DNA from: a phage | DNA: 64,000 bases | Assembly (NCBI GenBank): GCA_017676145.1 | Contig: GCA_017676145.1_3628.1 | Strand: one strand, 5' to 3' | Shown here: positions 1,956 through 61,612 of the stretch, piece by piece | Layout of the letters: every line of letters begins with the position of its first letter | How positions within the stretch are numbered: the first letter of the stretch is position 1 | Notes under the pieces: model-generated | What the model was told of the DNA's origin: nothing | Seen by the model: only the letters and a program-made list of their open reading frames with translations | Database searches by the model: none | Program-made: the position numbers and the translations under genes

Positions 1956-2363
1956 ATGGATAATCTTGCAAGTGTAAACGTAGAAATTGTTAAACTAAAG
2001 TTCTTGGGCTTTCGAGACCCTAATTCTCTAACAGCTATACTGATGGATACCCACTTCACACCGGGGAAAGAGTACACTGCCTTCCGTTATACTCACGGAG
2101 ATCACGAATCGGCCTATAGTGTGAATACAAACCTCGGTGAGGGATATTTCATCAGAGATATCACAGATCACTTGTGGGGTATGTGGGAATTGGTGGGAGA
2201 AGAGAATAAATCCCTTCCCAAAGAGATTTGGGTGCACACCTTCCACACAGGGAAGTTTGGTGGAACGGAGCATAAATCTATCCACTATGATGAAGGAAGT
2301 GCCATCAAGCAACAAGCTGTGCTTGGCGGATCTGTAGAAAAATTTGTTAAATGCGAGGACTGA
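1956..2363 (+). CDS. hypothetical protein (135 aa)
   Basis: Internal ATG at 1956 preceded by gaggag RBS preferred over the listed 1881 start; promoter-like TTGACA-17-TATGAT just upstream. Confidence 0.5.
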   Translation: MDNLASVNVEIVKLKFLGFRDPNSLTAILMDTHFTPGKEYTAFRYTHGDHESAYSVNTNLGEGYFIRDITDHLWGMWELVGEENKSLPKEIWVHTFHTGKFGGTEHKSIHYDEGSAIKQQAVLGGSVEKFVKCED

Positions 2364-2366
2364 GAA

Positions 2367-2567
2367 ATGGCTGATTTTTGTAAAGATTGCTCTGAAGAGT
2401 TGTTTGGCTTTGACTGCAAAGATTTGGAAGGTCTGATCACTGAGGATCAGTGGAAGGAAGGCTATGCAGCACCTGTTATTTGTGAAGGTTGTGGCTATAC
2501 CTATGTTGACCATAAAGGTAAGCGCGTCAAGCCGTCTGAAGATGGGGCATGTTGGGAGTATTACTAA
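2367..2567 (+). CDS. small zinc-ribbon-like protein (66 aa)
   Basis: Paired Cys motifs (CKDC ... CEGCG ... C); followed by a strong hairpin terminator. Confidence 0.5.
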   Translation: MADFCKDCSEELFGFDCKDLEGLITEDQWKEGYAAPVICEGCGYTYVDHKGKRVKPSEDGACWEYY

Positions 2568-2615: not shown

Positions 2616-5600
2616 TTAACGAGAAAAGGTTGCGTAGGCTTCTAGACGATACTGCTGGTCACCAGGGAACATAACACCTATAGAGGCTGTCCCTAGAATC
2701 CTGCCTTCCTTTCCAGACTCCATTCTGAACCCTACCCATCCTGAACTCCTTGCAGCATCGATGTTGTCTCTATACCCGAAAGTGGCAAGATCGTCAACAC
2801 CAGCCCCAAACAGCAACTGAAGCTGACTTCTCGGAAGCCCTATAATTTCAGGAATATACGCACCAAAGTACACCATCTGCCCTACCTTAGGACCGCTGCC
2901 GTACTCCATCGGCTTGCTTGTAGAGAAAGTCTTCATACCAGAAGTCCCTGCCGGATTAGGATATGCCCCGTTTGTTGCTGTACCTATCCACATTCTCCAC
3001 TGTGGTGCCATCTGTTTGACAGTAAAAGATGTTGAAGACGTTTTGCGCCCTGCATCATCTGTAACTACAAACTTTATAGTGACATTCCCAGTAGCTTTAA
3101 ATGTTACCAGCCCTGTGGTAGCATCCACTGTTGCAATGTTGGTATTACTACTTTCCCAAGTCTTTCTGATTCCTGGCACATTGGAAGGGGTAATAGAAGG
3201 TTCCTGCATCTGCAGTTTACCACCTACAATCCCTATCCCGTTTCCTGGATTATACAACGCACCAACCTCGTCTACAATGTTACCTGCCTTGAGGCTGTAC
3301 TTTTTAGAGAAGTTGTAAGTGCCGTTATATGTGTGTGTCCCTGAGAAGGTTACATCTGCTTTTCCGTAAGAGATGCAAACCAAAGCATACTTCCTGTCAG
3401 GCAACGGTGCCCCAGTTTCTGGGTGAGTTTTACCCACCTGAAACACACTCGGGTCAGTGGAGTCTTGGCTATCACTAACGGAGTTTGGACCCCCCATCAG
3501 TTGTGACAGGCAATTCCTTACCCATGTCCAGTTATTATCGCTGGAGAAGTCCACAGTTAAATCAAACACAACCCACTCATTTGGCTTCCACACAGGTGTT
3601 GCAATGGACTTGCCTACACCGCCTCCTTGGAGTGTTGCCGACTGTTCAGTGATCAGGGCCGCGTAGGCCAGAGTTCCTAAACTCAGAGTTTGGCTTGCTG
3701 TCCTCACTACCTTAGAATCAGCATCTGTGAAGTTGTTGATGATCTGGAATGTGCCATAAGTGTTTTTACAGGTAATTCTGGCGTTCAGCGTGTCAATCTT
3801 CCTCACATCTGCCATAGCAGTGTTAGACACAGAGAAGTCAGAAGCTTTAGCTGAGTTTGCCGCAACAGCAGGATCAACGTTAAGAGTTGCGTTGAACTGA
3901 CAAGCTGGGGTAACCAGCAGCTTGTTATCACCTATTTGCTTCCATGAAACACTTTGAACAGGGAGATTCCATTTAATACCTGAGAAAACTTTAGCAACCC
4001 TTGGCCCCAGAGCTCCAGTCCTGGTGTCTTTACAGCACATGGACATGGTGATCGTTGACGGAGTGGCCTGACCAAACAATTGCTGTGCTTTTGCAGAGGA
4101 CATGGTGTAGAAATTGTCCTTAACAAACTCATCAGCCGCCAATGATCCGTCAGATCTCCACCATTGCACCTGGTACCCTGTCTTATCCCAGCCACCGACC
4201 TGCTTCAGGTCCTCCCAGGAGATTTCCAGATCCCCAGTGGTAGGGTTGATTGCAGCAGTTCCTGGTGTTCCAGAGGACCATAATGGGATATCGAACCATG
4301 CTGGTTTAACAGATTGTACTGCGTTCGGTCCTATTGCAGCAGCAAGTTGCTGACCCATCAACACACGAGAATCTTTTACCAAGCCCCATTCAATCATGGA
4401 CCCAGAGTAGCCTTCTTTCTTATAGGCCGAAGATCCGTTCAAATGGATAAGCCTGCTGCAGTCGAAACCATACGCCCCGCCACCGTTAGGATCTGCAAAG
4501 TTAGTTATGATTCTATCCCTTATATTTTTCCATGCCCTGCCTCCAATCTCGTAGTCATGGTCATAACATCTCTGCAGCGTTGTCCAGCAAATGATTGCCA
4601 TTCTTCTGCCACCAGTAAACCCGAAAGCGCCGTCATTCAACTCTTTCCACAGATAGCAGTTAGTTGCCCACATAGCTCTGTGGATATTGAACCAGTTTAT
4701 AGACTTAGCAGAATTGTCCCACTGAGTTCCCGGTAATTCAGGCCACACTGCATTAACCAACATGTCTTCTGTTCCTGCATCAACTAAGAACCCTCTCACC
4801 TTTTTACCCATACCTGCCCTGTCTTTAGCAATCCAATTGCCAAACAGTCTCAGTTTTGGACCATAAACGACATCCTCTGGGTGCTCAAAAGAAACATACT
4901 TTAAGTAGATTGTTGGGTCACCGTAGGTGCCATCACAAACACTTTTGTGCATGTTTTCGCCAAGATCTAGACGAAGCCCTGTCACCACTTTAGACGTGTC
5001 GGTGAATTTGTCTGTTAAATCAAATTCATACCACCACCATCCACCACCAAGCATAAATTTCTTGCATCGAGCATTGTCTGTATCAGATATTCTCTTATCC
5101 CCTGCAAAAGGTGAATCAGCAAACTGATAATGCAGAGCAGTCTCGAATAAATGTGTTGAGGTTCCGTTTTCTGCAAGAACTTGCTTACCTATTAAGTCGC
5201 ACTTAATGATCATCACAACACGTTTGTACCCGTTTGTTACTGGAACTTGCATAGACATGGATGTCCCATCCATGTTTGATCTCAGCACGGTCATGACGAT
5301 ATAAGGGTCAACGGCATTGCCCAGAGTTTCAGGACCAGGGATTATCTTGTACTTCTTAACCTGCCCCATAAACCTGTCACTGGCGTAAGTTGCAGCCTCG
5401 AAGCAAGATCCTCCATTAGGTAGTTCGCCAGGACCCCAGAAAAATGCGCCATAACAGTTATAAAACCACTTGTTAGGATCGTATTTGTTCTTGAAGGTCT
5501 GAACCTCGTTAGCCTGTTTTGTCAAGAAAACCTGAGTATCTGTGAAGATTGCAGGATTCACTCTTGCCTGTCGATCAGCATATCCAGGTTGGTTAAACCA

Positions 5601-10055: not shown

Positions 10056-10322
10056 TTAAGCTTTTTGCTCTTCGTTTTTAACGTGGTCAGGGTGCTGGCA
10101 ACCCCACCGGAGCGAGATGAATTTGCTAATAAGCTGGGGGCAAGCTACTGAAGGTGCGTATATCCACGCATACCATTCAGGAAGCGTATCATTGTACCCC
10201 ATATGAATAAACACCCCAGTCATCACTGCCATGCCTATGTTTGACCATAGCTTAGATTGGGACACTTTTGTAGGGTCATCAGATGCTGCAACCAGTCCCC
10301 ATAAAAACTGAGTTAATTTCAT
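10056..10322 (-). CDS. small membrane protein (88 aa)
   Basis: Hydrophobic segments (LWGLVAA, IGMAVMTGVFI); lies immediately downstream of fibre paralogue A. Confidence 0.4.
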   Translation of the reverse strand: MKLTQFLWGLVAASDDPTKVSQSKLWSNIGMAVMTGVFIHMGYNDTLPEWYAWIYAPSVACPQLISKFISLRWGCQHPDHVKNEEQKA

Positions 10323-10331
10323 TTACCCTCT

Positions 10332-11378
10332 TTAAGCATAAGATATGGTGATCCATTGACCGTTTACAAATTTTTGAATGGCTCCAGTCCAATAGTCGCC
10401 CTGATACGGGTGTTTATATGCGTAATTGCCGGAGCACATTACATGCCCAGGGTATACTCTTGATTCTCTGTAGGTGGTTCTGAAACGGTTTGCTATCCTT
10501 ACATCTTCAACACCTCTACTAGGCATAGGAATAGTAAGGTTACCACTACTGTCTGCGCTACTACCATTTACCCTGCGGACCACGTTTCTTCCACCAACTG
10601 TTGCATATTGACCCCTGGCGGTTTTATCGTTACAATCTACTCTTCCACCTATTTGAGCGCTGCCGCAGGATTGTTGCCCATTAACAGTGGATCTAGGTAT
10701 CGTTACCGCATTAGCATTTGCAGAGGAGCTTTTTGCATCATTGCATTCAAGATTTCCTTGGATAGCCAGTCTTGCACGGTTGGCAGTTATAGCATTGAGC
10801 TTCATAGCCGAAAACACAGGCTGCCCACCAGAAGGTTGAAATCTCCAACGGAAACCGTCTATTTGGTGAGAGGGATCATCAAGGTCTGTGCCGTCAGCAC
10901 CACCGATGTTGTCCATAATCCAGAAATCCATCATCGTCTTGTCTGGAGTTATGGTGGTGTATATCGCCGCACTATCTGTTGACGCGGATGCAAACTCGAT
11001 TCTTTGAAGACCTAAAGTTTGAGTCTGGATCATTGTGTCTCCAGCCTTGTCAACATAAAGGTCATCCATTTCTTCAGGCGAGTATACATTGAGAACTTGA
11101 CGTGCAGCAGCTTTGTCTGGAACGTCTGCCAGATTATTAGTGACCCTTAAGAATCTATTATCCCATCCTGGGACAACATCTTCTGTTAAATGCTTTAGCC
11201 ACGCAGAGAGCATGTGGAGTTCAAAGTTAACAACTTCACATGCTATCCTTTGTGTCATATCCCAACCTTTCAATCTCTCTTCTTTGTTCGGTTGAGATTT
11301 GTTCAACTCTCCTGTATTTTCAAGCACAACATCCTGATTGGCCCAAATATCAAGAGGGATAACTGGTTTAGTCATCAC
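10332..11378 (-). CDS. tail fibre protein, paralogue A (348 aa)
   Basis: Clear paralogue of 12391..13431 (shared PLxIWA N-terminus, GDTM motif, LQRI(E/N)F, FRWRFQP, C-terminal NGQWIT(I/V)(S/N)YA); GDTM(T)G-type motif common in phage tail fibres. Confidence 0.55.
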   Translation of the reverse strand: MMTKPVIPLDIWANQDVVLENTGELNKSQPNKEERLKGWDMTQRIACEVVNFELHMLSAWLKHLTEDVVPGWDNRFLRVTNNLADVPDKAAARQVLNVYSPEEMDDLYVDKAGDTMIQTQTLGLQRIEFASASTDSAAIYTTITPDKTMMDFWIMDNIGGADGTDLDDPSHQIDGFRWRFQPSGGQPVFSAMKLNAITANRARLAIQGNLECNDAKSSSANANAVTIPRSTVNGQQSCGSAQIGGRVDCNDKTARGQYATVGGRNVVRRVNGSSADSSGNLTIPMPSRGVEDVRIANRFRTTYRESRVYPGHVMCSGNYAYKHPYQGDYWTGAIQKFVNGQWITISYA

Positions 11379-11465
11379 GTTCTCCTGAGAAAATTCCTTA
11401 AGGACTATTTTAACACTTTAGAGAACAAAATGCAAGAACGGCATCCTTGCCGTTCTGACCTTTGT

Positions 11466-11780
11466 TTACCTTTTACTATGCTCTACAAGCATGTGTAAAA
11501 TCTTTTGCACATCGGCTCTGATACCGGAGACATCTGTCCTGACATCTTGCTTAAGGTCGTTAATATCGGCCTCTAGCTTACTTAACCGGGTCTCAATAAT
11601 GGAATCAAGTCTATCTTTTGTAACCATGCTATTTTTCACTAAAATGAGGTCTTTCTCCAGCTCATCCAACCTCTTGGAAATGCCTTTCCATTTGGTGTGC
11701 CACTGGTTGAAAGCCCATACACAGATCGGGACAACGGTACCCATGCAGATACCGTACAATGCCGCCAAATCCAACTCCAC
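11466..11780 (-). CDS. membrane-anchored coiled-coil protein (104 aa)
   Basis: N-terminal hydrophobic helix (ALYGICMGTVVPICVWAF) followed by heptad-like charged region. Confidence 0.4.
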   Translation of the reverse strand: MELDLAALYGICMGTVVPICVWAFNQWHTKWKGISKRLDELEKDLILVKNSMVTKDRLDSIIETRLSKLEADINDLKQDVRTDVSGIRADVQKILHMLVEHSKR

Positions 11781-17705: not shown

Positions 17706-17772
17706 GTCACTCCTCCGGTATGAAAATCTCTACAAGGTATTTTACCAAATTTTGTAACAATAGTCAATCTGA

Positions 17773-17802
17773 GCATAAAAATAAACCCCGCCGAAGCGGG
17801 GC
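17773..17802 (-). terminator. rho-independent terminator
   Basis: On minus strand GCCCCGC-ttcg-GCGGGG hairpin followed by TTTATTTTTAT, immediately downstream of gene ending at 17811. Confidence 0.65.
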
Positions 17803-17810
17803 TTTAAAGG

Positions 17811-23218: not shown

Positions 23219-23281
23219 TGTGCCTCCAGGTTAAACAATCATGATAATTATTTTACCAGATTTTAAGTTAATACGCAATAT

Positions 23282-23310
23282 AAACAAAAAGCCCCCGCCG
23301 AAGCGAGGGC
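23282..23310 (-). terminator. rho-independent terminator
   Basis: On minus strand GCCCTCGC-ttcg-GCGGGGGC hairpin followed by TTTTTGTTT, directly after stop of 23318..27124 gene. Confidence 0.65.
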
Positions 23311-23317
23311 AAAACAG

Positions 23318-37345: not shown

Positions 37346-37388
37346 TTTATAGCATCCTTATTAGTCATGTTGTGCACCATATTTGTGT

Positions 37389-37417
37389 ATTTTACCATGA
37401 TTATGGTGCATTGTCAA
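37389..37417 (-). promoter_or_regulatory. sigma70-like promoter (TTGACA-17-TAAAAT) with flanking inverted repeat
   Basis: On minus strand TTGACAatgcaccataatcatggTAAAAT; inverted repeat TGCACCATA / TATGGTGCA brackets the -10; located upstream of chaperone/tape measure genes. Confidence 0.5.
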
Positions 37418-37454
37418 TTTAACCTTTCAAGCAATTCAAGAACGTGTGTCAAAA

Positions 37455-37489
37455 CCATAAAAGCAAAAAGCCCCACCCGAAGGTGAGGC
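37455..37489 (-). terminator. rho-independent terminator
   Basis: On minus strand GCCTCACC-ttcg-GGTGGGGC hairpin followed by TTTTTGCTTTTATGG, downstream of 157-aa tube-like gene. Confidence 0.65.
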
Positions 37490-37507
37490 CTATGCTAAAG
37501 TGTGCCC

Positions 37508-40903: not shown

Positions 40904-40944
40904 TAATGTATTTTACCACAAAGATACATCAAAAGCAACAATTT

Positions 40945-44995: not shown

Positions 44996-45426
44996 TATTC
45001 ATTGCCCTCTTCTACAACACTGATCCCGAAGTTTACGTTGGTAATTTCACCAGTCTCTTCATCAACATTACCTGTTGCCTGAATGCTTAGGCCACCAACA
45101 ATGCCAGCCTTCTTAGCTTCCCATAATTCAGGATTATTGTATTTAACTTTAGCAACCCAAGAGCCAGCCTTGATGACCTGCTCAGTGCCAATCACTACAA
45201 CATCAAACTCTTCTTGAATCCACGTCTTTTCAATGGTGAAAGCATCTGTAGAGGTCAAGTGAAAAAGGTTTTCAGAAACTAGGCCTGCGGCGTATGCTGC
45301 GTCCCAGTTATCTTTAGCCTTTTTGATGGTGTCTTTACTCATCCACTCGCCGTGAGCATCTTTAGTGTCAGGTTCGTAGATGATTTCGTAGGAAATCATT
45401 TCTTCCTGTGGCATCTTATTCCCCAT
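44995..45426 (-). CDS. head maturation protein / possible prohead protease (start uncertain)
   Basis: ORF overlapping the portal 3' end; internal start near MGNKMPQ preferred over the listed 45570. Confidence 0.3.
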   Translation of the reverse strand: MGNKMPQEEMISYEIIYEPDTKDAHGEWMSKDTIKKAKDNWDAAYAAGLVSENLFHLTSTDAFTIEKTWIQEEFDVVVIGTEQVIKAGSWVAKVKYNNPELWEAKKAGIVGGLSIQATGNVDEETGEITNVNFGISVVEEGNE

Positions 45427-45481
45427 GTGGATTATTTTATCACGCCAAAGGAGGTTTTGCAACCCCCTGTGTTGATAATTT

Positions 45482-47038: not shown

Positions 47039-47140
47039 AAGCTTTACCCCTCAAAACAGTATAACAAAATAGCCCTCGTGTTAGAGGGCTAGTATCTCCG
47101 ATTACTCTATTCTACCACATCTAATTAAGATTGGCAACAC

Positions 47141-47920
47141 TTAGATAAAACGCTTGAACATAGAAGGTGATGAGATTGATGGAATCACACAAGGAAGTGC
47201 TACCTCCTCTTTCTCCAGGAAATTAATCGCAGAAGCCACACAGTCGGCCCAGTCGTCTTTTCTGTTAAATGTTGATCTTTCCCCGTTGAATTTTTCAAGT
47301 TCAGTCAGAAATGCTTCCAGAGTATCAGGATGGAAACTGGATTTTACAATCCTCACCATTCCTTGTTGGGCAAGATTGGCAAAAGGTGAGAACCTTGTTA
47401 GTTTAGATTTGTTGGAAGGCATTGGATCTTCTTCAACCCTAAACCCTTCGGCGAGTAAGGATCTGGAGGAGGTTAAGAACTCACTCTTACCTGCCTGACC
47501 TGGGTCCACAGAGAATACGATTATACAATCATCACCATCAAACTGCGCCTGTTTCCTGATGATCACATCTCGTTCACCAGCCTTTTTACAGAACTTACCT
47601 TCCAGACCTGTGGAATATCTCCCGTCATCCACGTTCTCAGGACAATAATCACCGGACAGGTAATAAAAGCCGTCGCTATCTTTACTTACCTTAACACTGG
47701 CGGTAAAGTCAGGAAATTTATTACCGGAAGTTCTCTCGGTTCCTGCCTTATCCCATGCCCTACAAGATACTGATCCAAGGGGTACTCTATCGGCATCACG
47801 AAGGAAAGATCTTTGAAAATAGTTTGCACCCTCAGGCTTTGCAAACCAGTTACCATGAAGAAGCTGAGCTTTTTCCAGTTCCGGCAGACCTTCAAGGAAA
47901 GCAAGGTATTCGGGGTTGTC
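47141..47920 (-). CDS. terminase large subunit, exon 3 (nuclease domain); 5' boundary approximate (+/-30 nt)
   Basis: Frame is open upstream of the listed 47632 start back to a stop at 47948-47950, reading ...DNPEYLAFLEGLPELEKAQLLHGNWF...RAWDKAG...; continues terminase after intron 2. Confidence 0.65.
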   Translation of the reverse strand, partial: DNPEYLAFLEGLPELEKAQLLHGNWFAKPEGANYFQRSFLRDADRVPLGSVSCRAWDKAGTERTSGNKFPDFTASVKVSKDSDGFYYLSGDYCPENVDDGRYSTGLEGKFCKKAGERDVIIRKQAQFDGDDCIIVFSVDPGQAGKSEFLTSSRSLLAEGFRVEEDPMPSNKSKLTRFSPFANLAQQGMVRIVKSSFHPDTLEAFLTELEKFNGERSTFNRKDDWADCVASAINFLEKEEVALPCVIPSISSPSMFKRFI

Positions 47921-48923
47921 TCTTAAGCAGACAGGATTATCGAATCCTTATATTCAAAGGTGGTCGCAACACCACCTTCCGCACCTTTACGTGCTGCTGC
48001 ATGTTACCATGCAGAGTAGACTATATCACCACCCATCTCAGGGTGCTTCGCTTTTCGAGCGCCATAAGCTTGCGCCCTACTCCCTCTCGGGATAGTCGTT
48101 GAACTACATTACCAATCGTAATTGTTTGAAATATAGGTGTAAGTCTTACGATCTTTTATTCCTTTAACAACACTAAAACTTACTCCCCACTTCTTAGCTA
48201 TTTTATTTACACACAAAACCCTGTCGCTAAGATCCTCGCAGATACCTATTATCTTGTGCTCACTTATCCTATTAGAGGTTGGCACTTTTCTAAAGTTAAA
48301 CTCTTTAGAAATATCTGGGTATACTGAGCCATTCTTTATACCACTTACAAGTGGTTGATTGACACCAAACATTTCACAAATGTCTTTTACCCTTGCACCT
48401 TGCTCTAACAGCCTACATATTTCAAGAGCAGTGGCATCATCTAGGGACCTGTATCTATTGATATAGTCCTTTTTAAGTCCCATTTCATGAGCGTGATGTG
48501 TGTTTTCCTCAGGCGTTGTCCACTCAAGGTTCCATGCGGCGTTATTCAACTTATTACCATCCAGGTGGTTTACTTGAGTTTTCACGCTGGGATTATCATT
48601 ATCAACAAAAGTCATAGCAATCACTCTGTGGACTAGCACTTGGAACTTTTTACCGCCCTCGCACAAAGTTACCATAGCATAGCCAGTCTTTTTCTGCACA
48701 TTAGGATGGAGGAATTTATTAGAATACAGACTGTAAATTCTTCCATCGTATGTAGCACAATAATGATTGTAACCTAAAAAGCCTAAATTTTTCATTTCAA
48801 ACATCTCCCTACTACAGGTTCGGAAGGGTAATTATAGCTGCTGATTGTCCGTTTAGCAATCGGATTTTCCAGCAATTAACGAAGTTATTCGACGTGCATT
48901 TCTGCACGAAGCCACTATCATTT
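47921..48923 (-). mobile_element. group I intron 2 in terminase large subunit gene, carrying an HNH homing endonuclease ORF; ends approximate
   Basis: Minus-strand core elements P AATTGCTGGAAAA (48866-48878), Q AATCAGCAGC (48837-48846), R GTTCAACGACTA (48083-48094), S GATATAGTC (48019-48027) in canonical order; in-frame stop right after the exon; ORF between Q and R. Confidence 0.75.
48109..48804 (-). CDS. intron-encoded HNH homing endonuclease (231 aa)
   Basis: NHLDGNKLNNAAWNLEWTTPEEN HNH motif; located inside intron 2 between Q and R elements. Confidence 0.8.
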   Translation of the reverse strand: MFEMKNLGFLGYNHYCATYDGRIYSLYSNKFLHPNVQKKTGYAMVTLCEGGKKFQVLVHRVIAMTFVDNDNPSVKTQVNHLDGNKLNNAAWNLEWTTPEENTHHAHEMGLKKDYINRYRSLDDATALEICRLLEQGARVKDICEMFGVNQPLVSGIKNGSVYPDISKEFNFRKVPTSNRISEHKIIGICEDLSDRVLCVNKIAKKWGVSFSVVKGIKDRKTYTYISNNYDW

Positions 48924-49241
48924 AATGGTTGCGCCTATAAACGAGAATGACAACGGTCTTGGCTTAATCTCCACACCTAGTCCGTTAACCGTGGTGTATT
49001 TCTCTATTAACTCCTCTTTAGAGTCTCCCCAGATAAATTCACCGTCGCGCCGGATAAAATATCTTTTCTTACCACATTTCTCCGGATCTGGATACCCTTC
49101 ATCGTCCAACCACCACCTAACCAGTTTGGCAAGCATGTGTTCTGAGTCGGGGTTACAGCTGATAACCATTCTTGATGGATACTTTGACTGAGATCGCAGA
49201 CGAGACATTAGATAGTCTATCTGCTCCCATTCGAATTGCGT
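48924..49241 (-). CDS. terminase large subunit, exon 2; boundaries approximate
   Basis: In-frame segment ...(T)QFEWEQIDYLMSRLRSQ...VISCNPDSEHMLAKL...; bounded upstream by intron 1 and downstream by a stop at the start of intron 2. Confidence 0.6.
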
Positions 49242-49560
49242 CGTTTATGTTCAGGCAAGGTCGCTAGTCTTGCCCCGCCATTTTCAGGCAGCTGCATGTC
49301 TCCATGCAGACCAGACTATATCTTATAAGCTATAACAACAGCTTACCCTCCCGTTTCGAATCGCTTGATTCTACGTCTTTCGACTAGTCGTTGAACGTTC
49401 ATCCTCTCGGATGCTTCGCTGCGGATTATCTAAATCAACACTCTGTTACCATACCTTCGATCTCTCTTCGAAGCCTCTATTATGTTACCATAACAGGTTG
49501 GTGGTGTTAATAATAAAGATTTCCCCGCAATTAGGGAGGTTTTACGAGAGCTACAAATTA
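49242..49560 (-). mobile_element. group I intron 1 in terminase large subunit gene (no ORF)
   Basis: Minus-strand P AATTGCGGGGAA (49521-49532), Q AATCCGCAGC (49418-49427), R GTTCAACGACTA (49385-49396), S GATATAGTC (49316-49324); exon ends GGT followed by TAA, as in T4 td-type introns. Confidence 0.75.
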
Positions 49561-49986
49561 ACCCTCATCGAAGCAAACCATGGTGTACTCAAGCCCTTGA
49601 TGGTTAAGCTTATCTTGGACATACTCCATGTGGCAGTATTTTACAACGGCCCCTTTTTTGCTCCTGTCCCACTTGCCAGTGCTCGGATCAAACCGTGGAA
49701 AAATAAACTTATGATCCTTCTCTCTGAACTTTGGTTTAATGTTTTCAGGCAGATCACTGTAAATAGCTACTGCTTTAGGCCATAGACCTCCTTCACCCTC
49801 CAGCTGCGGGGTTGTTCTTCGGAACATAACCACAGAGCTGTGTGGGTCATCAATAATTTTAAGTGGCATTAGCTGCAAGAGGAACGACTTGCCAGAACCG
49901 GCTGCACCTCCGATCACCAAAATATCTGCATCGTTCTCAAGGATCATCTTCTGCTTTTCAGAACACGGTCCGTAAATCTTAGACAT
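49561..49986 (-). CDS. terminase large subunit, exon 1 (ATPase domain)
   Basis: Walker A GGAAGSGKS and Walker B MVCFDEG; start ATG overlaps the o-spanin stop (TAATG). Confidence 0.75.
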
Positions 49987-50273
49987 TAACCTCTCTCCTT
50001 TGGAAACAGTGTTCTTATATAGTCTTGCAAAATGATCAATTTAGCTCTATCATTACTACAAGACAGGTTATTATCCCTCATAATGCCAGAATTCACCGCA
50101 TCTGGCGCACCTTTCTTCAAAGGGATAGCTTTAGCAGGTGGTTTCATAGCACCCTCGGGAGGTTTAACAATCAACCTTCCTACATCCGGAGGGTCAATCT
50201 TATATTCTTTTTCGACACTTGTCGCACATCCGCACAGCAGTAAGCAAGCAACTAACAATACGGTGGCTCTCAT
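49986..50273 (-). CDS. o-spanin (Rz1-like outer-membrane lipoprotein)
   Basis: Signal peptide with lipobox-like LLLCGC, Pro-rich mature region, 95 aa; 4-nt overlap with upstream i-spanin gene. Confidence 0.6.
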   Translation of the reverse strand: MRATVLLVACLLLCGCATSVEKEYKIDPPDVGRLIVKPPEGAMKPPAKAIPLKKGAPDAVNSGIMRDNNLSCSNDRAKLIILQDYIRTLFPKERG

Positions 50274-50668
50274 CTACCCTCCTGATTAATGCTCTCGTTA
50301 TAGATATCTATAAGCTGGTCAGGTAGTGTTGACTTCTTACCTTCAGGTGATTGGAGGTAGATAATCTGCTTTTCTTTACCTGCCTTCTCAGCCATATTTA
50401 ATTTATCCTGTAAGTCAGAAAGAGATTTTTCAAGGTTTTTAACCTCCTCTGCGTGGCCCATTTTAATTTTGTCGGCCTGCTTTTGTTGTTGGTCAAGGAT
50501 CCGTTCCCACTTTAACTCTGTTGCTGACACACCTTCCTGATAAGCATCATTGAGCTTAGAGTTAAACCAATACACGGCCCCAAGATAAGTCATGCCTATA
50601 GCCGCTGCAAAAACTAAACCTTTTATGATCCCTCTGTATTTACTCATCAATGTTAAAACTGAAATCAT
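50270..50668 (-). CDS. i-spanin (Rz-like)
   Basis: N-terminal transmembrane helix (GLVFAAAIGMTYLGAVYWF) then coiled-coil charged region; followed by the lipoprotein gene. Confidence 0.6.
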   Translation of the reverse strand: MISVLTLMSKYRGIIKGLVFAAAIGMTYLGAVYWFNSKLNDAYQEGVSATELKWERILDQQQKQADKIKMGHAEEVKNLEKSLSDLQDKLNMAEKAGKEKQIIYLQSPEGKKSTLPDQLIDIYNESINQEGR

Positions 50669-50685: not shown

Positions 50686-50717
50686 GAAAAAACCCCGCAG
50701 CTATGCAGCTAACGGGG
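50686..50717 (-). terminator. rho-independent terminator
   Basis: On minus strand CCCCG...CGGGG hairpin followed by TTTTTTCGTTT, between the 89-aa gene and the spanin gene. Confidence 0.55.
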
Positions 50718-50773
50718 CGGGTTAAAATTGAGTAACCTAAATAGATCGAAACTAACTAAAAGGAGACTAATAC

Positions 50774-51043
50774 TTATCGAGGCACTCGGTGGATGATTCT
50801 GACAGTAACTGCATTCTCATTCATCAAGTATGCATCCACATCTCTGTAAATATAAAACTTCTGCTCGCTATCAACAACACAAGCCACTGCCCCTTCAGAG
50901 TTGTCTTCAAAGAAGACCACAACTGCATCGCAGCTTAGTTCATGATACGACTCTCGAAGATTTACAGCAAGAGGGTTGAAATCGTCACGAAAATCTACAG
51001 TATGGGTTGGATTTACACGTTCTACAATTTTAAGTGTATACAT
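50774..51043 (-). CDS. hypothetical protein (89 aa)
   Basis: ORF downstream of tRNA array with AAGGAA RBS. Confidence 0.45.
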   Translation of the reverse strand: MYTLKIVERVNPTHTVDFRDDFNPLAVNLRESYHELSCDAVVVFFEDNSEGAVACVVDSEQKFYIYRDVDAYLMNENAVTVRIIHRVPR

Positions 51044-51329: not shown

Positions 51330-51335
51330 AAAAAG

Positions 51336-51440
51336 GTGCTAGGTGATGGAATCGAACCACCTATGTATTCAACGACTACCTCGTCTATTTTCAGGATTAA
51401 AAATCCTCGCCCTTGCCAAAGGGCTTACCTAGCGCAATAT
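51336..51440 (-). ncRNA. tRNA-like element, non-canonical (pseudo-tRNA or small stable RNA)
   Basis: Has 7-bp acceptor-like stem GCTAGGT/ACCTAGC, D-like arm GCCC/GGGC and T-arm GGTGG-TTCGATT-CCATC, but no 7-nt anticodon loop and ~30 nt extra between anticodon-like and T arms; CCA not fully encoded. Confidence 0.35.
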
Positions 51441-51736: not shown

Positions 51737-51824
51737 TGGTGGTGAGTGATGGAGTCGAACCACCCGAATCGCAATGATAACAGATTTACAGTCTGCCCCG
51801 CTACCCCTACGGAATTAACTCACC
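51737..51824 (-). tRNA. tRNA-Tyr (anticodon GUA), type II
   Basis: Acceptor GGTGAGT/ACTCACC, anticodon stem CAGA/TCTG with loop CTGTAAA, long variable arm, T-arm GGTGG-TTCGACT-CCATC, encoded CCA. Confidence 0.75.
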
Positions 51825-52087: not shown

Positions 52088-52116
52088 ATATTACACTGTT
52101 AAGCAAAGTTTGTCAA
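52088..52116 (-). promoter_or_regulatory. sigma70-like promoter for the tRNA array (TTGACA-17-TAATAT)
   Basis: On minus strand TTGACAaactttgcttaacagtgTAATAT, ~55 nt upstream of the first tRNA 5' end. Confidence 0.55.
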
Positions 52117-59447: not shown

Positions 59448-60730
59448 TGCATCAGATCAAAACAACACTGTACGCACTGAACAAAGATGGCAGCTACCAA
59501 CAGTGGAAAGTATTCACGGATGGTGATAAGGTTATCGTAGAGTTTGGCAAGCTTGATGGTAAACTGCAATACAAAGAGACGATCTGCACACCTAAGAACG
59601 TTGGTCGTGCCAATGAAACTACAGCTGAGCAACAGGCTGAGCTGGAAGCGATCAGTAAGTGGGAAAAACAAGTCCGTCTGGGGTATGTTGAAAATATGGA
59701 AGATTGCGAGCAGGGTGTTGACCTTTTACCCATGCTGGTGCATGACTACCTGAAGCGTGGAAAGGCACTTAAATTACCTTGCTGGATCTTGCGTAAGTTA
59801 GATGGCCTTCGTCTACTTGTTGTTTTCCAAAATGGTGAGCCTAAATTTATTTCCCGTGGTAATAAGTCCTACCCTATTCAAGGAAAGCTTCTGGAGCAAC
59901 TTCGTTCTTTCCACTTCACCACCGGGATTAAACAGCTCGACGGAGAGATCTATATTCATGGCCTGCCTCTGCAGAAAATAGTGTCTCTTGCTAAACGGTG
60001 GCGCACACAGGAAGAGATTCAGGCCGAGATCGATAAAGACTACGAGGCAGATAAAAAACGCCGTCATGCCGCAATTAAGGCAGGCTTATCAACATACAAA
60101 AACTTCAACAAGGTAGATATTCCTGTTGATGTTGAGCCTGTTCGTGATGATTTGCGTTACGGTGGGTACTGTAGCTACGATCTAGAGTATCACATTTTTG
60201 ATATTCCTAGTGACAAGGTGTGGTGGGATCCAGAAACAGAATCTGGACGCTGCAAGGATCTTATGGATGTAGAAGATACCATTACCACTCTGATGCTTGA
60301 CCATATCAAGGTTGTTGACGCAGAGCTTGCGTACACAGTTGATCATTGCGAAGAATCTGTCGGTGTATTCATGTCCGAAGGGTATGAAGGTACTATCATG
60401 CGTAACTTCTGTGGTAAATACGAATACGGTCAGCGAACATCTGAAGCATTGAAATGGAAAAAGTTCAACGATGCTGAGGTGAAAGTTATTGACGTTGAGA
60501 AAGATAAGAATGATGAAGGTGTTCTTATCTGTGTTGACAAGGAAGGTATTGTTGTTAAAATGAAGATGAAAGGTACGCACGAGGAGCGTAGCTATGACAG
60601 GATGCAGGAAATGATCGGCAAGTTTGTCACCTTCAAATATCAAGCAAGGACAGAAGACAACAACTACCAATTCCCTGTCGGTATCTGCGTCCGAAATGTT
60701 AACCCAGACACTTGGGAGGTGCTGGAATAA
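59447..60730 (+). CDS. ATP-dependent DNA ligase
   Basis: Nucleotidyltransferase motif I KLDGLR, motif III LDGEIYI, motif IV EGTIMR, motif V LKWKK; 427 aa. Confidence 0.75.
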   Translation: MHQIKTTLYALNKDGSYQQWKVFTDGDKVIVEFGKLDGKLQYKETICTPKNVGRANETTAEQQAELEAISKWEKQVRLGYVENMEDCEQGVDLLPMLVHDYLKRGKALKLPCWILRKLDGLRLLVVFQNGEPKFISRGNKSYPIQGKLLEQLRSFHFTTGIKQLDGEIYIHGLPLQKIVSLAKRWRTQEEIQAEIDKDYEADKKRRHAAIKAGLSTYKNFNKVDIPVDVEPVRDDLRYGGYCSYDLEYHIFDIPSDKVWWDPETESGRCKDLMDVEDTITTLMLDHIKVVDAELAYTVDHCEESVGVFMSEGYEGTIMRNFCGKYEYGQRTSEALKWKKFNDAEVKVIDVEKDKNDEGVLICVDKEGIVVKMKMKGTHEERSYDRMQEMIGKFVTFKYQARTEDNNYQFPVGICVRNVNPDTWEVLE

Positions 60731-60871
60731 TTTAGGTATGTTTAGTAGATAACGGTAGCCAATTGAATGAGTGTTTTCAATTGGCACCTACATATGCCCT
60801 GATGTATGCACTGTGCAACCTAGCCACGTGCTGATCAGGGCTCGTTATGAGTGAACTGGAGAGTATGAAAA

Positions 60872-61342
60872 ATGAAACTTGATAAAAATGTTCAACGAAA
60901 AGCTTTCTTGGATATGATCGCATATTCAGAAGGTACAGATAATGGTAGACAACCTACCAAGGATCGGGGCTACGATGTCATAGTCGGGGGCAAGCTGTTT
61001 AGCGATTACAGTAAGCATCCAGGTGTTTACGTTAAACTAAATGCTAAACTTACCTCCTCTGCTGCTGGGCGTTACCAGATTCTGGAGAAGTTTGCTAAAC
61101 ACTATATGAAACAGTTAGGATTACCAGATTTTGGCCCTACCAGTCAGGACAAGATTGCGTTGCAACTGATCCGTGAGTGTAAGGCGCTCGATGATATTGA
61201 TGAAGGTCGTATTCACCAGGCCATCCATCTTTGCAGATCCCGATGGGCAAGCCTTCCAGGTGCAGGGTACGGTCAGCACGAACAGAAGATCGAAAAGTTG
61301 ATCGAGGTGTTTAAAAAGTCAGGCGGCGTTGTCCTGGATTAA
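60872..61342 (+). CDS. endolysin, lambda R-type lysozyme (lytic transglycosylase)
   Basis: QRKAFLDMIAYSEGTDNGRQ...GYDVIVGG...AGRYQ...WASLPGAGYGQ is near-collinear with lambda R as recalled. Confidence 0.85.
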   Translation: MKLDKNVQRKAFLDMIAYSEGTDNGRQPTKDRGYDVIVGGKLFSDYSKHPGVYVKLNAKLTSSAAGRYQILEKFAKHYMKQLGLPDFGPTSQDKIALQLIRECKALDDIDEGRIHQAIHLCRSRWASLPGAGYGQHEQKIEKLIEVFKKSGGVVLD

Positions 61343-61405
61343 TCATTGACATAACCATACGGATGTGGTATTGTTGCCTCATAGAATGTTCAGGAGGGTT
61401 TAACC

Positions 61406-61612
61406 ATGAAAGATTTTCTGTTGGCAATTTTGTTCATGGCAGCATGCCTTGTCTGTGGTGTCGTGTTTGCAGGTGAGACAGCGTACCTTGTAGATGTATA
61501 TCGGGACAATGGTAAACGTATTTGCCTTTATGAGACAAGCCAAGGTGAGCTATATGAGCTTGTGAAACAAGGTGAGGCAGGTTCCTGCCCTCGCACCCAT
61601 TTCTTTGAATGA
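61406..61612 (+). CDS. small secreted/membrane protein (68 aa), possible lipoprotein or lysis accessory protein
   Basis: N-terminal hydrophobic segment LLAILFMAACLVCGVVFAG with a possible lipobox-like Cys; directly downstream of the endolysin gene. Confidence 0.4.
   Translation: MKDFLLAILFMAACLVCGVVFAGETAYLVDVYRDNGKRICLYETSQGELYELVKQGEAGSCPRTHFFE

What the first reader, a model, noticed from the sequence alone, without database searches (positions are those of the whole stretch)
49986..50668. Lysis genes are dispersed: spanins head the late operon while the endolysin sits 10 kb away on the opposite strand, with no obvious holin
The i-spanin/o-spanin pair is directly upstream of, and translationally coupled to, the terminase gene, whereas the lambda R-type lysozyme (60872..61342) lies in the plus-strand gene block. 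No canonical holin is adjacent to either; candidates are small membrane proteins at 61406..61612, 11466..11780 and 10056..10322. This raises the question of how lysis timing is controlled.
Basis: partly seen in the sequence, partly recalled or inferred. Interest (0 to 1): 0.4.

Follow-up and report, generated by a model that had tools for sequence, protein, structure and literature searches.

The report
Scattered lysis genes of rV5-like phage

Summary
The window is 92-97% identical to, and collinear with, Escherichia phage rV5 (Vequintavirus). ORFs 50270..50668(-) and 49986..50273(-) are an i-spanin/o-spanin pair. They overlap each other by ATGA, and the o-spanin overlaps the large-terminase start by one base (TAATG). 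ORF 60872..61342(+) is a full-length homologue of lambda R lysozyme (PDB 1AM7, E=2e-56) with no membrane or signal segment. No neighbour of either locus matches a holin family.

All of this is already published. Kropinski 2013 says the rV5 holin is separated from the lysin "as in T4" and proposes gp129, which lies outside this window. Buttimer 2020 notes the spanins beside TerL in rV5, PVP-SE1 and CB7. [quoted passage not shown] T7 has the same layout.

The holin remains unidentified. The adjacent 68-aa protein is a poor candidate. The 88-aa protein at 10056..10322 belongs to a wide family with two or three membrane segments and a hypervariable charged tail. It is at least as good a candidate as gp129, but nothing decides between them.

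Verdict: an ordinary, already described arrangement. Low interest.

The parts
50270..50668 (-). i-spanin (132 aa; homologue of rV5 gp068): N-terminal membrane segment at about residues 14-35, preceded by K/R residues, then a charged helical periplasmic domain
   Evidence: PHROG 4297 E=2.8e-48. Hydropathy and charge map. RefSeq rV5 annotation 'Rz-like spanin'. Listed in the spanin census under 'separated' architecture.
49986..50273 (-). o-spanin (95 aa; homologue of rV5 gp067): lipoprotein signal MRATVLLVACLLLCG|C16, Ala at +2, proline-rich mature part
   Evidence: PHROG 1267 E=4.3e-22. Sequence read directly. The lipobox fits the PROSITE PS51257-type rule by inspection. ATGA overlap with the i-spanin.
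49558..49986 (-). First exon of the large terminase gene; its ATG overlaps the o-spanin stop (TAATG)
   Evidence: PHROG 9526/979 'terminase large subunit'. Sequence. Group I intron follows at 49292..49570.
50687..50720 (-). Terminator-like G+C hairpin plus T6 run, about 19 nt upstream of the i-spanin start; no promoter-like site between it and the gene
   Evidence: Not annotated in the rV5 record.
60872..61342 (+). Soluble lambda R-type endolysin (156 aa; homologue of rV5 gp085); the catalytic-Glu motif AYSEGT aligns with lambda AWSEGT; no N-terminal hydrophobic segment
   Evidence: PDB 1AM7/3D3D E=2e-56 over the full length. PHROG 90. No membrane segment found in the hydropathy scan.
60534..60871 (+). 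Near-consensus sigma-70-like promoter (60534..60561, inside the ligase 3' end) followed by a strongly structured 141-nt leader upstream of the endolysin
   Evidence: Promoter scan 11 of 12 matches with TG. RNA fold -49 kcal/mol, z=-4.5.
61406..61612 (+). 68-aa protein (homologue of rV5 gp086; PHROG 4641) with one strongly hydrophobic N-terminal segment and an acidic C-terminal domain containing two Cys; it has its own sigma-70-like promoter at 61346..61374. Weak holin candidate.
   Evidence: Homologue in ABPH49 without an adjacent endolysin.
10056..10322 (-). 88-aa membrane protein (homologue of rV5 gp029; PHROG 1322) packed between two tail-fibre genes: two weakly hydrophobic segments and a charged C-terminal tail. 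Holin candidate.
11466..11780 (-). 104-aa protein (homologue of rV5 gp031; PHROG 5345): N-terminal membrane segment with acidic residues before it and basic residues after it (predicted N-out/C-in), then a charged coiled coil. Conserved partner of the 88-aa gene across the subfamily.

Best explanation
This is the already described lysis gene set of an rV5-like phage (genus Vequintavirus).

Mechanism. It most likely works as the standard three-step lysis of Gram-negative hosts.
1. A holin permeabilises the inner membrane at a programmed time.
2. The holin hole releases the cytoplasmic lambda R-type transglycosylase (60872..61342), which destroys the murein.
3. The two-component spanin (i-spanin 50270..50668, o-spanin lipoprotein 49986..50273) then disrupts the outer membrane.

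Gene layout. The genes are not in a cassette but dispersed, as in T7 and T4.
- The spanins are translationally coupled to each other and to the large terminase in the late morphogenesis block.
- The endolysin sits alone in the replication-gene block behind a sigma-70-like promoter and a structured leader. It can accumulate harmlessly there because it has no export signal.
- The timing gene, the holin, is unlinked to both.

What is shown and what is inferred.
- Shown: the homologies, the topological features, the overlaps and the synteny.
- Inferred: the function of each protein, the expression times and the identity of the holin.

The confidence given (0.8) is for this general model and for its being already known. 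My ranking for the holin itself:
- The 88-aa PHROG-1322 protein at 10056..10322 in the late tail-fibre operon, possibly acting with the 104-aa protein at 11466..11780: about 0.35.
- The published candidate gp129, outside the window: about 0.25.
- The 68-aa neighbour of the endolysin: about 0.07.
- Something else: the remainder.
For: Identity of the phage.
- The region around the spanins is 96% identical to Escherichia phage V5 and relatives.
- The whole window is collinear with rV5 at 92-97% identity.

Spanins.
- PHROG hits.
- ATGA and TAATG overlaps.
- N-in TMD plus a periplasmic helix, and a lipobox.
- Listed in the spanin census.

Endolysin.
- Homologous to lambda lysozyme 1AM7, E=2e-56.
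- No TMD.

Published statements of the same layout.
- Holin separate from lysin as in T4, with gp129 proposed.
- Supplementary table listing 'putative holin' ORF 129.
- Spanins next to TerL in CB7, rV5 and PVP-SE1.
- Holin not positively identified in LL12.
- Holin still 'not identified' in a 2026 rV5-like genome paper.

T7 precedent. The gene order is tail fibre 17, holin 17.5, TerS, spanins 18.5/18.7, TerL.

The 88-aa candidate.
- It is packed 9 nt from the tail-fibre genes on both sides, so it is co-transcribed late.
- It is conserved in all Vequintavirinae genera, Stephanstirmvirinae and Aeromonas Plateaulakevirus, whatever the endolysin type (369 records).
- An exhaustive HMMER search finds 72 clusters. 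They share a conserved two-TMD core and a hypervariable, highly charged C tail of roughly 10 to 80 residues. About 14 members carry an extra N-terminal TMD, the 2-TMD versus 3-TMD pattern of classical holin classes.
- The BME3 record already labels the homologue 'membrane protein-holin'.
Against: - No candidate has detectable homology to any holin family in Pfam, PHROGs or NCBIfam. An hhalign comparison with T7 gp17.5 is negative.
- The membrane segments of the 88-aa protein are weakly hydrophobic. They were not predicted by TMHMM or Phobius in 2013 and fall below the 1.6 Kyte-Doolittle cut-off here. The AlphaFold model has low confidence, pLDDT 58.
- In distant IMG/VR relatives the gene sits between DNA polymerase/UvsX and dUTPase. 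It is never next to an endolysin or spanin, so guilt by association gives nothing.
- gp129 has two strong TMDs and a textbook charged tail, so the published candidate is not excluded.
- rV5 also encodes a second, signal-peptide-bearing SleB-like hydrolase next to rIIA, outside the window. Its role in lysis is unknown.
- No expression data were available.
Confidence: 0.8

Rival explanations
1. The holin is the homologue of rV5 gp129 (78 aa, two strongly hydrophobic TMDs, charged C tail). It is encoded about 22 kb downstream of the endolysin and outside this window, as proposed by Kropinski et al. 2013. The small membrane proteins in the tail-fibre module would then do something else.
For: - The sequence shows the classical class II appearance.
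- It is the published proposal.
- It is present in essentially all Vequintavirus records (116). That is the same phyletic range as gp086, and I infer the same for the R-type endolysin.
- It lies in a cluster with other small membrane proteins and with proteins detected in virions, so late expression there is possible.
Against: - No holin-family homology.
- The inter-TMD loop RRKVKFDD is strongly basic, which fits the N-in/C-in class II topology poorly.
- It is unusually divergent among otherwise about 95% identical genomes, at 53-90% identity in most records.
- It is not annotated as a holin in RefSeq rV5 or the BASEL genomes.
Confidence: 0.25
2. The 68-aa protein immediately downstream of the endolysin (61406..61612) is the holin. 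It would be a small single-TMD holin forming a two-gene endolysin-holin cassette.
For: - It is adjacent to the endolysin, 63 nt downstream.
- It has one very hydrophobic N-terminal segment, Kyte-Doolittle 2.86.
- It is highly conserved, 95-100% identical in about 120 Vequintavirus records.
Against: - Its C-terminal domain is acidic and contains two Cys. That suggests a periplasmic, possibly disulphide-bonded domain, not the basic cytoplasmic tail typical of holins.
- It has its own sigma-70-like promoter.
- Its homologue in Acinetobacter phage ABPH49 occupies the same ligase-to-exonuclease interval with no endolysin nearby. Seunavirus GAP31 has small membrane proteins there but no annotated endolysin. 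The R-type gene therefore looks like a solo insertion next to a pre-existing gene.
- No holin-family hit.
Confidence: 0.07
3. The conserved membrane proteins in the tail-fibre module (88 aa and 104 aa, plus a 152-157-aa polytopic protein in Seunavirus and Certrevirus) are not lysis proteins. They would instead act in membrane-associated tail or baseplate assembly or in superinfection exclusion.
For: - They have a constant position among tail-fibre and baseplate genes in several subfamilies.
- They are never next to an endolysin or spanin.
- In distant relatives the 88-aa family sits next to the DNA polymerase. From memory, that is where T4 keeps its imm gene.
Against: - No match to Imm_superinfect or any other Pfam family except weak DUF2644 hits in 3 of 70 members.
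- Late co-transcription with structural genes is unusual for exclusion genes.
- The hypervariable charged tail and the 2- versus 3-TMD variants are holin hallmarks.
- They were not reported among the virion proteins of rV5.
Confidence: 0.3

Closest known systems
Escherichia phage rV5 (V5) and other Vequintavirus: published lysis gene set (gp067/gp068 spanins, gp085 endolysin, putative holin gp129)
   Same: The genes, order, strands and overlaps are the same, at 92-97% nucleotide identity. The conclusions already in print are also the same: the holin is unlinked or unidentified and the spanins lie beside TerL.
   Different: Nothing of substance. The window is a different isolate, a few per cent divergent, and covers only about rV5 10.9-74.8 kb, so gp129 and the SleB-like hydrolase fall outside it.
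Phage T7 lysis genes (3.5 amidase, 17.5 holin, 18.5/18.7 spanins)
   Same: The spanins lie immediately upstream of the large terminase. The holin lies immediately after a tail-fibre gene. The endolysin is far away among DNA-metabolism genes (the position of gene 3.5 is from established knowledge).
   Different: There is no sequence homology (hhalign negative). T7's o-spanin gene is embedded in the i-spanin gene, whereas here the two are separate with a 4-nt overlap. T7's endolysin is an amidase, not a transglycosylase. The holin assignment here is unproven.
Phage T4 lysis genes (e, t, rz/rz1 = pseT.3/pseT.2, rI, rIII)
   Same: All lysis genes are unlinked. The holin t lies next to the tail-fibre genes 37/38. 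The spanin architecture is 'separated'. rIIA/rIIB homologues are present in rV5.
   Different: There is no homologue of T (a single TMD with a large periplasmic domain) or of RI/RIII. The endolysin is lambda R-type rather than T4 E-type.
Lambda S-R-Rz/Rz1 cassette
   Same: The endolysin is a close full-length homologue of R. The functional logic, a soluble endolysin that needs a large-hole holin plus a two-component spanin, is the same by inference.
   Different: There is no cassette and no S homologue. The spanin genes are not embedded and are unrelated in sequence to Rz/Rz1 beyond their architecture.

Membership tests
Two-component spanin: i-spanin | Small protein with one N-terminal TMD (N-in) and a periplasmic, largely helical or coiled-coil domain | tested here: met
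   The TMD is at about residues 14-35, preceded by K10/R12/K16, and is followed by a charged helical region. PHROG 4297 E=2.8e-48.
Two-component spanin: o-spanin | Outer-membrane lipoprotein: signal peptidase II signal with a lipobox Cys, no Asp at +2, and a short proline-rich mature part | tested here: met
   The signal is MRATVLLVACLLLCG|C16-A17. The mature part is 80 aa with the stretch PPDV..KPPEG..KPPAKAIP. PHROG 1267 E=4.3e-22. The lipobox was judged by inspection only; no LipoP run was available.
Two-component spanin: gene pair | The o-spanin gene is embedded in, overlapping or directly following the i-spanin gene | tested here: met
   ATGA overlap. rV5 is listed under 'separated' architecture in the spanin census.
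Two-component spanin: function | The i-/o-spanin complex spans the periplasm and is required for outer-membrane disruption | not testable with these tools
   This needs genetics or biochemistry.
Lambda R-type endolysin (lytic transglycosylase, PDB 1AM7 fold) | Full-length sequence homology including the catalytic Glu in the xSEGT motif | tested here: met
   phmmer E=2.2e-56 over residues 4-154. AYSEGT aligns with AWSEGT. Oddly, there is no Pfam hit in this Pfam copy.
SAR or signal-peptide endolysin | An N-terminal hydrophobic signal-anchor-release or signal sequence | tested here: not met
   The N-terminus MKLDKNVQRKAFLDMIAYSEG is hydrophilic, and no TMD was found in the scan. The window's endolysin is therefore cytoplasmic and needs a hole-forming holin.
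Holin (any class), applied to the 88-aa ORF 10056..10322 | Small size, at least one TMD, and a hydrophilic, highly charged C-terminal tail | tested here: inconclusive
   Across 72 clusters there is a conserved two-segment hydrophobic core plus a hypervariable charged tail, and some members have a third N-terminal TMD. In this phage, however, the segments are weakly hydrophobic and the AlphaFold pLDDT is 58.
Holin (any class), applied to all candidates | Homology to a described holin family | tested here: not met
   No holin family was hit in Pfam, PHROGs or NCBIfam. hhalign against T7 gp17.5 gives probability 0.7%.
Holin (any class) | Linkage to an endolysin or spanin gene in this or related genomes | tested here: not met
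   The 88-aa and 104-aa genes are always in tail-fibre or replication contexts. Only the 68-aa gene is adjacent to the endolysin, and its homologues elsewhere are not.
Holin (any class) | Lethal, energy-poison-triggerable membrane hole formation that releases the endolysin | not testable with these tools
   This needs inducible expression experiments.
Genus Vequintavirus (rV5-like phages) | High nucleotide identity and collinearity with Escherichia phage V5 | tested here: met
   95.8% identity over 97% of a 5-kb query. The whole window is collinear at 92-97%.

The most novel reading that the evidence does not exclude
The PHROG-1322 proteins (here 10056..10322) could be an unrecognised, widespread holin family of large myoviruses. 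The lineages concerned are Vequintavirinae, Stephanstirmvirinae, Plateaulakevirus and uncultured T4-like-replication phages. The family would occur in 2-TMD and 3-TMD versions with a hypervariable charged tail. It would always be encoded away from the endolysin, and in Vequintavirinae it would be paired with the 104-aa N-out/C-in coiled-coil protein (11466..11780) as a regulator. This would finally name the 'missing' holin of rV5-like phages.
Probability: 0.3. Interest if true: 0.4.

Novelty: already known. Interest (0 to 1): 0.15.

Why it matters
It matters little as it stands. Dispersed lysis genes are textbook for T4 and T7, and this exact arrangement has been in print for rV5-like phages since 2013.

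The only open point is which protein is the holin of this therapeutically used phage group. rV5-likes are in phage cocktails such as PreforPro. Identifying the holin would allow rational control of lysis timing and might add one more holin family, but it would not change how phage lysis is understood.

Tried and rejected
- **T4-type late promoter (TATAAATA).** It occurs 3 times against 2.2 expected, so it is not used here. Inspection of intergenic regions shows terminator-then-'TGnTAAAATA' units through the late block, but none directly upstream of the spanins, the endolysin or the 88-aa gene. Timing therefore could not be inferred.
- **Homology of candidates to known holins.** Pfam, PHROGs, NCBIfam and hhalign against T7 gp17.5 were all negative. 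A source label 'DUF2644' on one homologue was reproduced only weakly, in 3 of 70 members with best E=2e-4. No paper mentions that family.
- **Guilt by association for the 88-aa family.** Three look-ups by exact protein returned only contigs of 1-2 kb. In 50 IMG/VR loci the distant members sit between DNA polymerase/UvsX and dUTPase on the opposite strand, with no endolysin or spanin nearby.
- **AlphaFold model of the 88-aa protein.** Confidence was too low to use.
- **Functional data.** The CRISPRi-ART paper used the Vequintavirus EdH4, but only for the capsid and rII genes. The UE-M6 holin paper concerns a different endolysin type.
- **A small 2-TMD ORF overlapping the SleB-like gene of rV5, as reported for CB7.** None was found.
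- **The idea that the 104-aa protein is a second i-spanin.** Rejected because its flanking charges predict the opposite topology, N-out/C-in.

Full report
**What the window is.** A 5-kb stretch around the finding is 95.8-96% identical over 97% of its length to Escherichia phage V5/rV5 and many relatives. In all, 740 phage records match. A BLASTN of the rV5 loci against the whole window shows it is collinear with rV5 from about position 10.9 kb to 74.8 kb, at 92-97% identity. The window is therefore a member of the genus Vequintavirus, and the RefSeq rV5 annotation can be laid over it directly.

**Check of the observation.**
- *i-spanin.* The 132-aa product of 50270..50668(-) matches PHROG 4297 'Rz-like spanin' (E=2.8e-48). 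It has a single N-terminal hydrophobic segment preceded by basic residues and followed by a long charged helical region. That is the i-spanin architecture.
- *o-spanin.* The 95-aa product of 49986..50273(-) matches PHROG 1267 'Rz-like spanin' (E=4.3e-22). It starts MRATVLLVACLLLCGC, a lipoprotein signal with Cys16, has Ala at +2 and is proline-rich. That is the o-spanin architecture.
- *Overlaps.* The i-spanin stop and o-spanin start overlap as ATGA. The o-spanin stop overlaps the terminase ATG as TAATG. Each start has a GGAG-type ribosome-binding site.
- *Endolysin.* The 156-aa product of 60872..61342(+) aligns over its full length with lambda lysozyme (1AM7, 3D3D; E=2e-56), including the catalytic SEGT motif. 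It has no hydrophobic N-terminus, so it is a cytoplasmic endolysin.

The one loose phrase is 'head the late operon'. The spanins are the first genes of the packaging/morphogenesis block. On the same strand upstream, however, lie ORF 50774..51043, six tRNA-like genes and a sigma-70-like promoter at 52116..52088. A G+C hairpin followed by T6 ends about 19 nt before the i-spanin ATG.

**It is already in the literature.**
- Kropinski et al. 2013 describe the rV5 lysin (their Gp89) and found no holin homologue. [quoted passage not shown] Their Table S3 lists ORF 129 as 'putative holin'.
- gp129 lies at rV5 94058..94294, outside this window.
- The spanin census of Kongari et al. 2018 lists the rV5 pair under the 'separated' architecture.
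- Buttimer et al. [quoted passage not shown] - A 2026 paper on an rV5-like phage still lists the holin as not identified.
- The RefSeq rV5 record has no gene annotated as a holin anywhere.

**How it most likely works.** The parts fit the standard three-step model: holin, then soluble endolysin, then two-component spanin. The dispersal has clear precedents. In T7 the order is tail fibre 17, holin 17.5, small terminase 18, spanins 18.5/18.7 and large terminase 19, with the endolysin 3.5 far away among DNA-metabolism genes (established knowledge). In T4, the genes e, t, rz/rz1 and rI are all unlinked, and t follows the tail-fibre genes (established knowledge).

Here the endolysin lies in the plus-strand replication block. 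A near-consensus sigma-70-like promoter sits about 310 nt upstream, inside the ligase gene. The leader is strongly structured (-49 kcal/mol, z=-4.5), with the ribosome-binding site mostly unpaired. An endolysin without an export signal can be made early without harm, so timing must rest on the holin. These functional statements are inferences from homology and architecture.

**Which protein is the holin?** I examined four candidates.

1. *The 68-aa protein next to the endolysin (61406..61612, PHROG 4641).*
   - It has one very hydrophobic N-terminal segment, but its C-terminal domain is acidic and contains two Cys, which suggests a periplasmic domain.
   - It has its own promoter-like site.
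   - It is 95-100% identical in about 120 Vequintavirus records.
   - In Acinetobacter phage ABPH49 its homologue lies in the same ligase-to-exonuclease interval with no endolysin nearby. In Seunavirus GAP31 that interval holds small membrane proteins but no annotated endolysin.
   - The R-type gene therefore looks like a solo insertion beside a pre-existing gene. I rate this candidate low.

2. *gp129 (outside the window).*
   - It has two strong TMDs and a charged tail, and it is confined to Vequintavirus (116 records).
   - It is unusually divergent, at 53-90% identity in most records.
   - Its inter-TMD loop RRKVKFDD is strongly basic, which sits awkwardly with an N-in/C-in topology.

3. 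*The 88-aa protein at 10056..10322 (rV5 gp029, PHROG 1322).*
   - It is separated by 9 nt from the tail-fibre genes on both sides, so it is co-transcribed with late genes.
   - It is conserved in 369 phage records covering every genus of Vequintavirinae, the phi92/phAPEC8 group and Aeromonas Plateaulakevirus, always in the tail-fibre/baseplate module. These phages carry different endolysins.
   - An exhaustive HMMER search of 1.8 billion representatives found 72 clusters, and all 70 scanned members fall in PHROG 1322.
   - The alignment shows a conserved core, SHTK-F/L-W-S-N … W..Y…V…SKF.S.K/R-Y/W-G. The core consists of two hydrophobic segments followed by a hypervariable, highly charged tail of roughly 10 to 80 residues. 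About 14 members carry an additional strongly hydrophobic N-terminal segment.
   - Small size, two- and three-TMD variants and a charged variable tail are the classical descriptive hallmarks of holins. The BME3 authors have already labelled the homologue 'membrane protein-holin'.
   - Against it, the segments in this phage are weakly hydrophobic, and TMHMM and Phobius did not call them in 2013. The AlphaFold model is poor.
   - There is no holin-family homology.
   - In 50 IMG/VR loci the distant members lie between DNA polymerase/UvsX and dUTPase on the opposite strand, never by an endolysin.

4. *The 104-aa protein at 11466..11780 (rV5 gp031, PHROG 5345).*
   - It has an N-terminal TMD flanked by acidic residues before and basic residues after, so N-out/C-in is predicted. 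A charged coiled coil follows.
   - It is conserved across Vequintavirinae (224 records) and in the Aeromonas phage.
   - In Seunavirus and Certrevirus it forms a three-gene cluster with a 152-157-aa polytopic membrane protein (PHROG 7451) and the 88-aa gene. In rV5-likes a tail-fibre gene replaces the middle gene. It may be a partner of the 88-aa protein.

My ranking is the 88-aa protein at about 0.35, gp129 at about 0.25, the 68-aa protein at about 0.07 and something else for the rest. Nothing available here is decisive.

**A complication outside the window.** rV5 encodes a second muralytic enzyme, gp002. It is a 166-aa SleB-like cell-wall hydrolase (Pfam Hydrolase_2, E=2e-19) with a typical N-terminal signal sequence. 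It lies immediately upstream of rIIA in the direction of transcription. In the related CB7 a two-TMD ORF overlaps the equivalent gene and was proposed as a holin. No such ORF exists in rV5. Whether this exported enzyme contributes to lysis is unknown.

**Novelty and verdict.** It has been published several times. The remaining question, the identity of the holin, is real but small, and a candidate from the tail-fibre module has also been flagged elsewhere. I classify the finding as already known and of low interest.

Noticed in passing
window 47905..49570 (-): The large terminase gene is split into three exons. One intervening sequence is a group I intron (Rfam RF00028, 85 bits, 49292..49570). 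The other carries an HNH homing endonuclease gene (48109..48804). This is already described for rV5 and LL12.
   Followed up: partly
window 50687..50720 (-): A terminator-like hairpin plus T6 lies only about 19 nt upstream of the i-spanin start, and no promoter-like site follows it. It is not annotated in the rV5 record. It implies read-through from the tRNA promoter (52116..52088) or an unrecognised late promoter.
   Followed up: partly
window 60731..60871 (+): The 141-nt leader of the endolysin gene folds into two strong hairpins (-49 kcal/mol, z=-4.5 against shuffles). A near-consensus sigma-70-like promoter lies at 60534..60561 inside the ligase gene. This could be translational or stability control of the endolysin.
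   Followed up: partly
window 10056..11780 (-); L007 2894..3963; L008 2616..3696; L004 4154..5237: A conserved cluster of membrane-protein genes lies inside the tail-fibre module: a 104-aa TMD+coiled-coil protein, a 152-157-aa polytopic protein (PHROG 7451) and an 88-aa two-segment protein (PHROG 1322). All three are present in Seunavirus and Certrevirus. In rV5-likes the middle gene is replaced by a tail-fibre gene (10332..11378).
   Followed up: partly
L013-L061 (IMG/VR loci), match at about 5001..5450: Distant PHROG-1322 relatives carrying an extra N-terminal TMD sit alone on the opposite strand between DNA polymerase/UvsX and dUTPase genes of uncultured large phages with T4-like replication modules.
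   Followed up: partly
L064 (rV5) 1980..2480 (-), outside the window: rV5 has a second peptidoglycan hydrolase. It is SleB-like (Pfam Hydrolase_2, E=2e-19), has an N-terminal signal sequence (MKIKIFAIILSAFLSLPVVAA) and is encoded directly before rIIA/rIIB. Its role is unknown.
   Followed up: partly
window, late block: e.g. 17706..17810, 23219..23317, 37346..37507, 40904..40944, 44996..45481, 47039..47140 (-): Intergenic regions of the morphogenesis block repeatedly show a rho-independent terminator followed by an extended -10 motif, TGnTAAAATA. Some have a TTGAC-like -35 and some do not. T4-type TATAAATA late promoters are not enriched (3 found against 2.2 expected).
   Followed up: partly
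window 51335..51433 (-) and 51740..51824 (-): The tRNA cluster contains two atypical members. One is a 99-nt tRNA-like gene that ARAGORN reads with a 4-base anticodon (Rfam tRNA, 35.5 bits). The other is an 85-nt tRNA found by Rfam only (39 bits). The rV5 record annotates this stretch differently.
   Followed up: no
GenBank MG0656xx records (hits H8-H11, H31, H76 and others): More than twenty records named 'Campylobacter phage' with host Campylobacter jejuni are about 96% identical to rV5-like coliphages over this region. They are probably coliphage contaminants or misattributed hosts.
   Followed up: no
window 60872..61342 (+): The lambda R homologue gets no Pfam-A hit at all, even at E<=1, in this Pfam copy. 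The 2013 paper reported PF00959, and the PDB match is E=2e-56. A Pfam-only annotation would miss this endolysin.
   Followed up: yes
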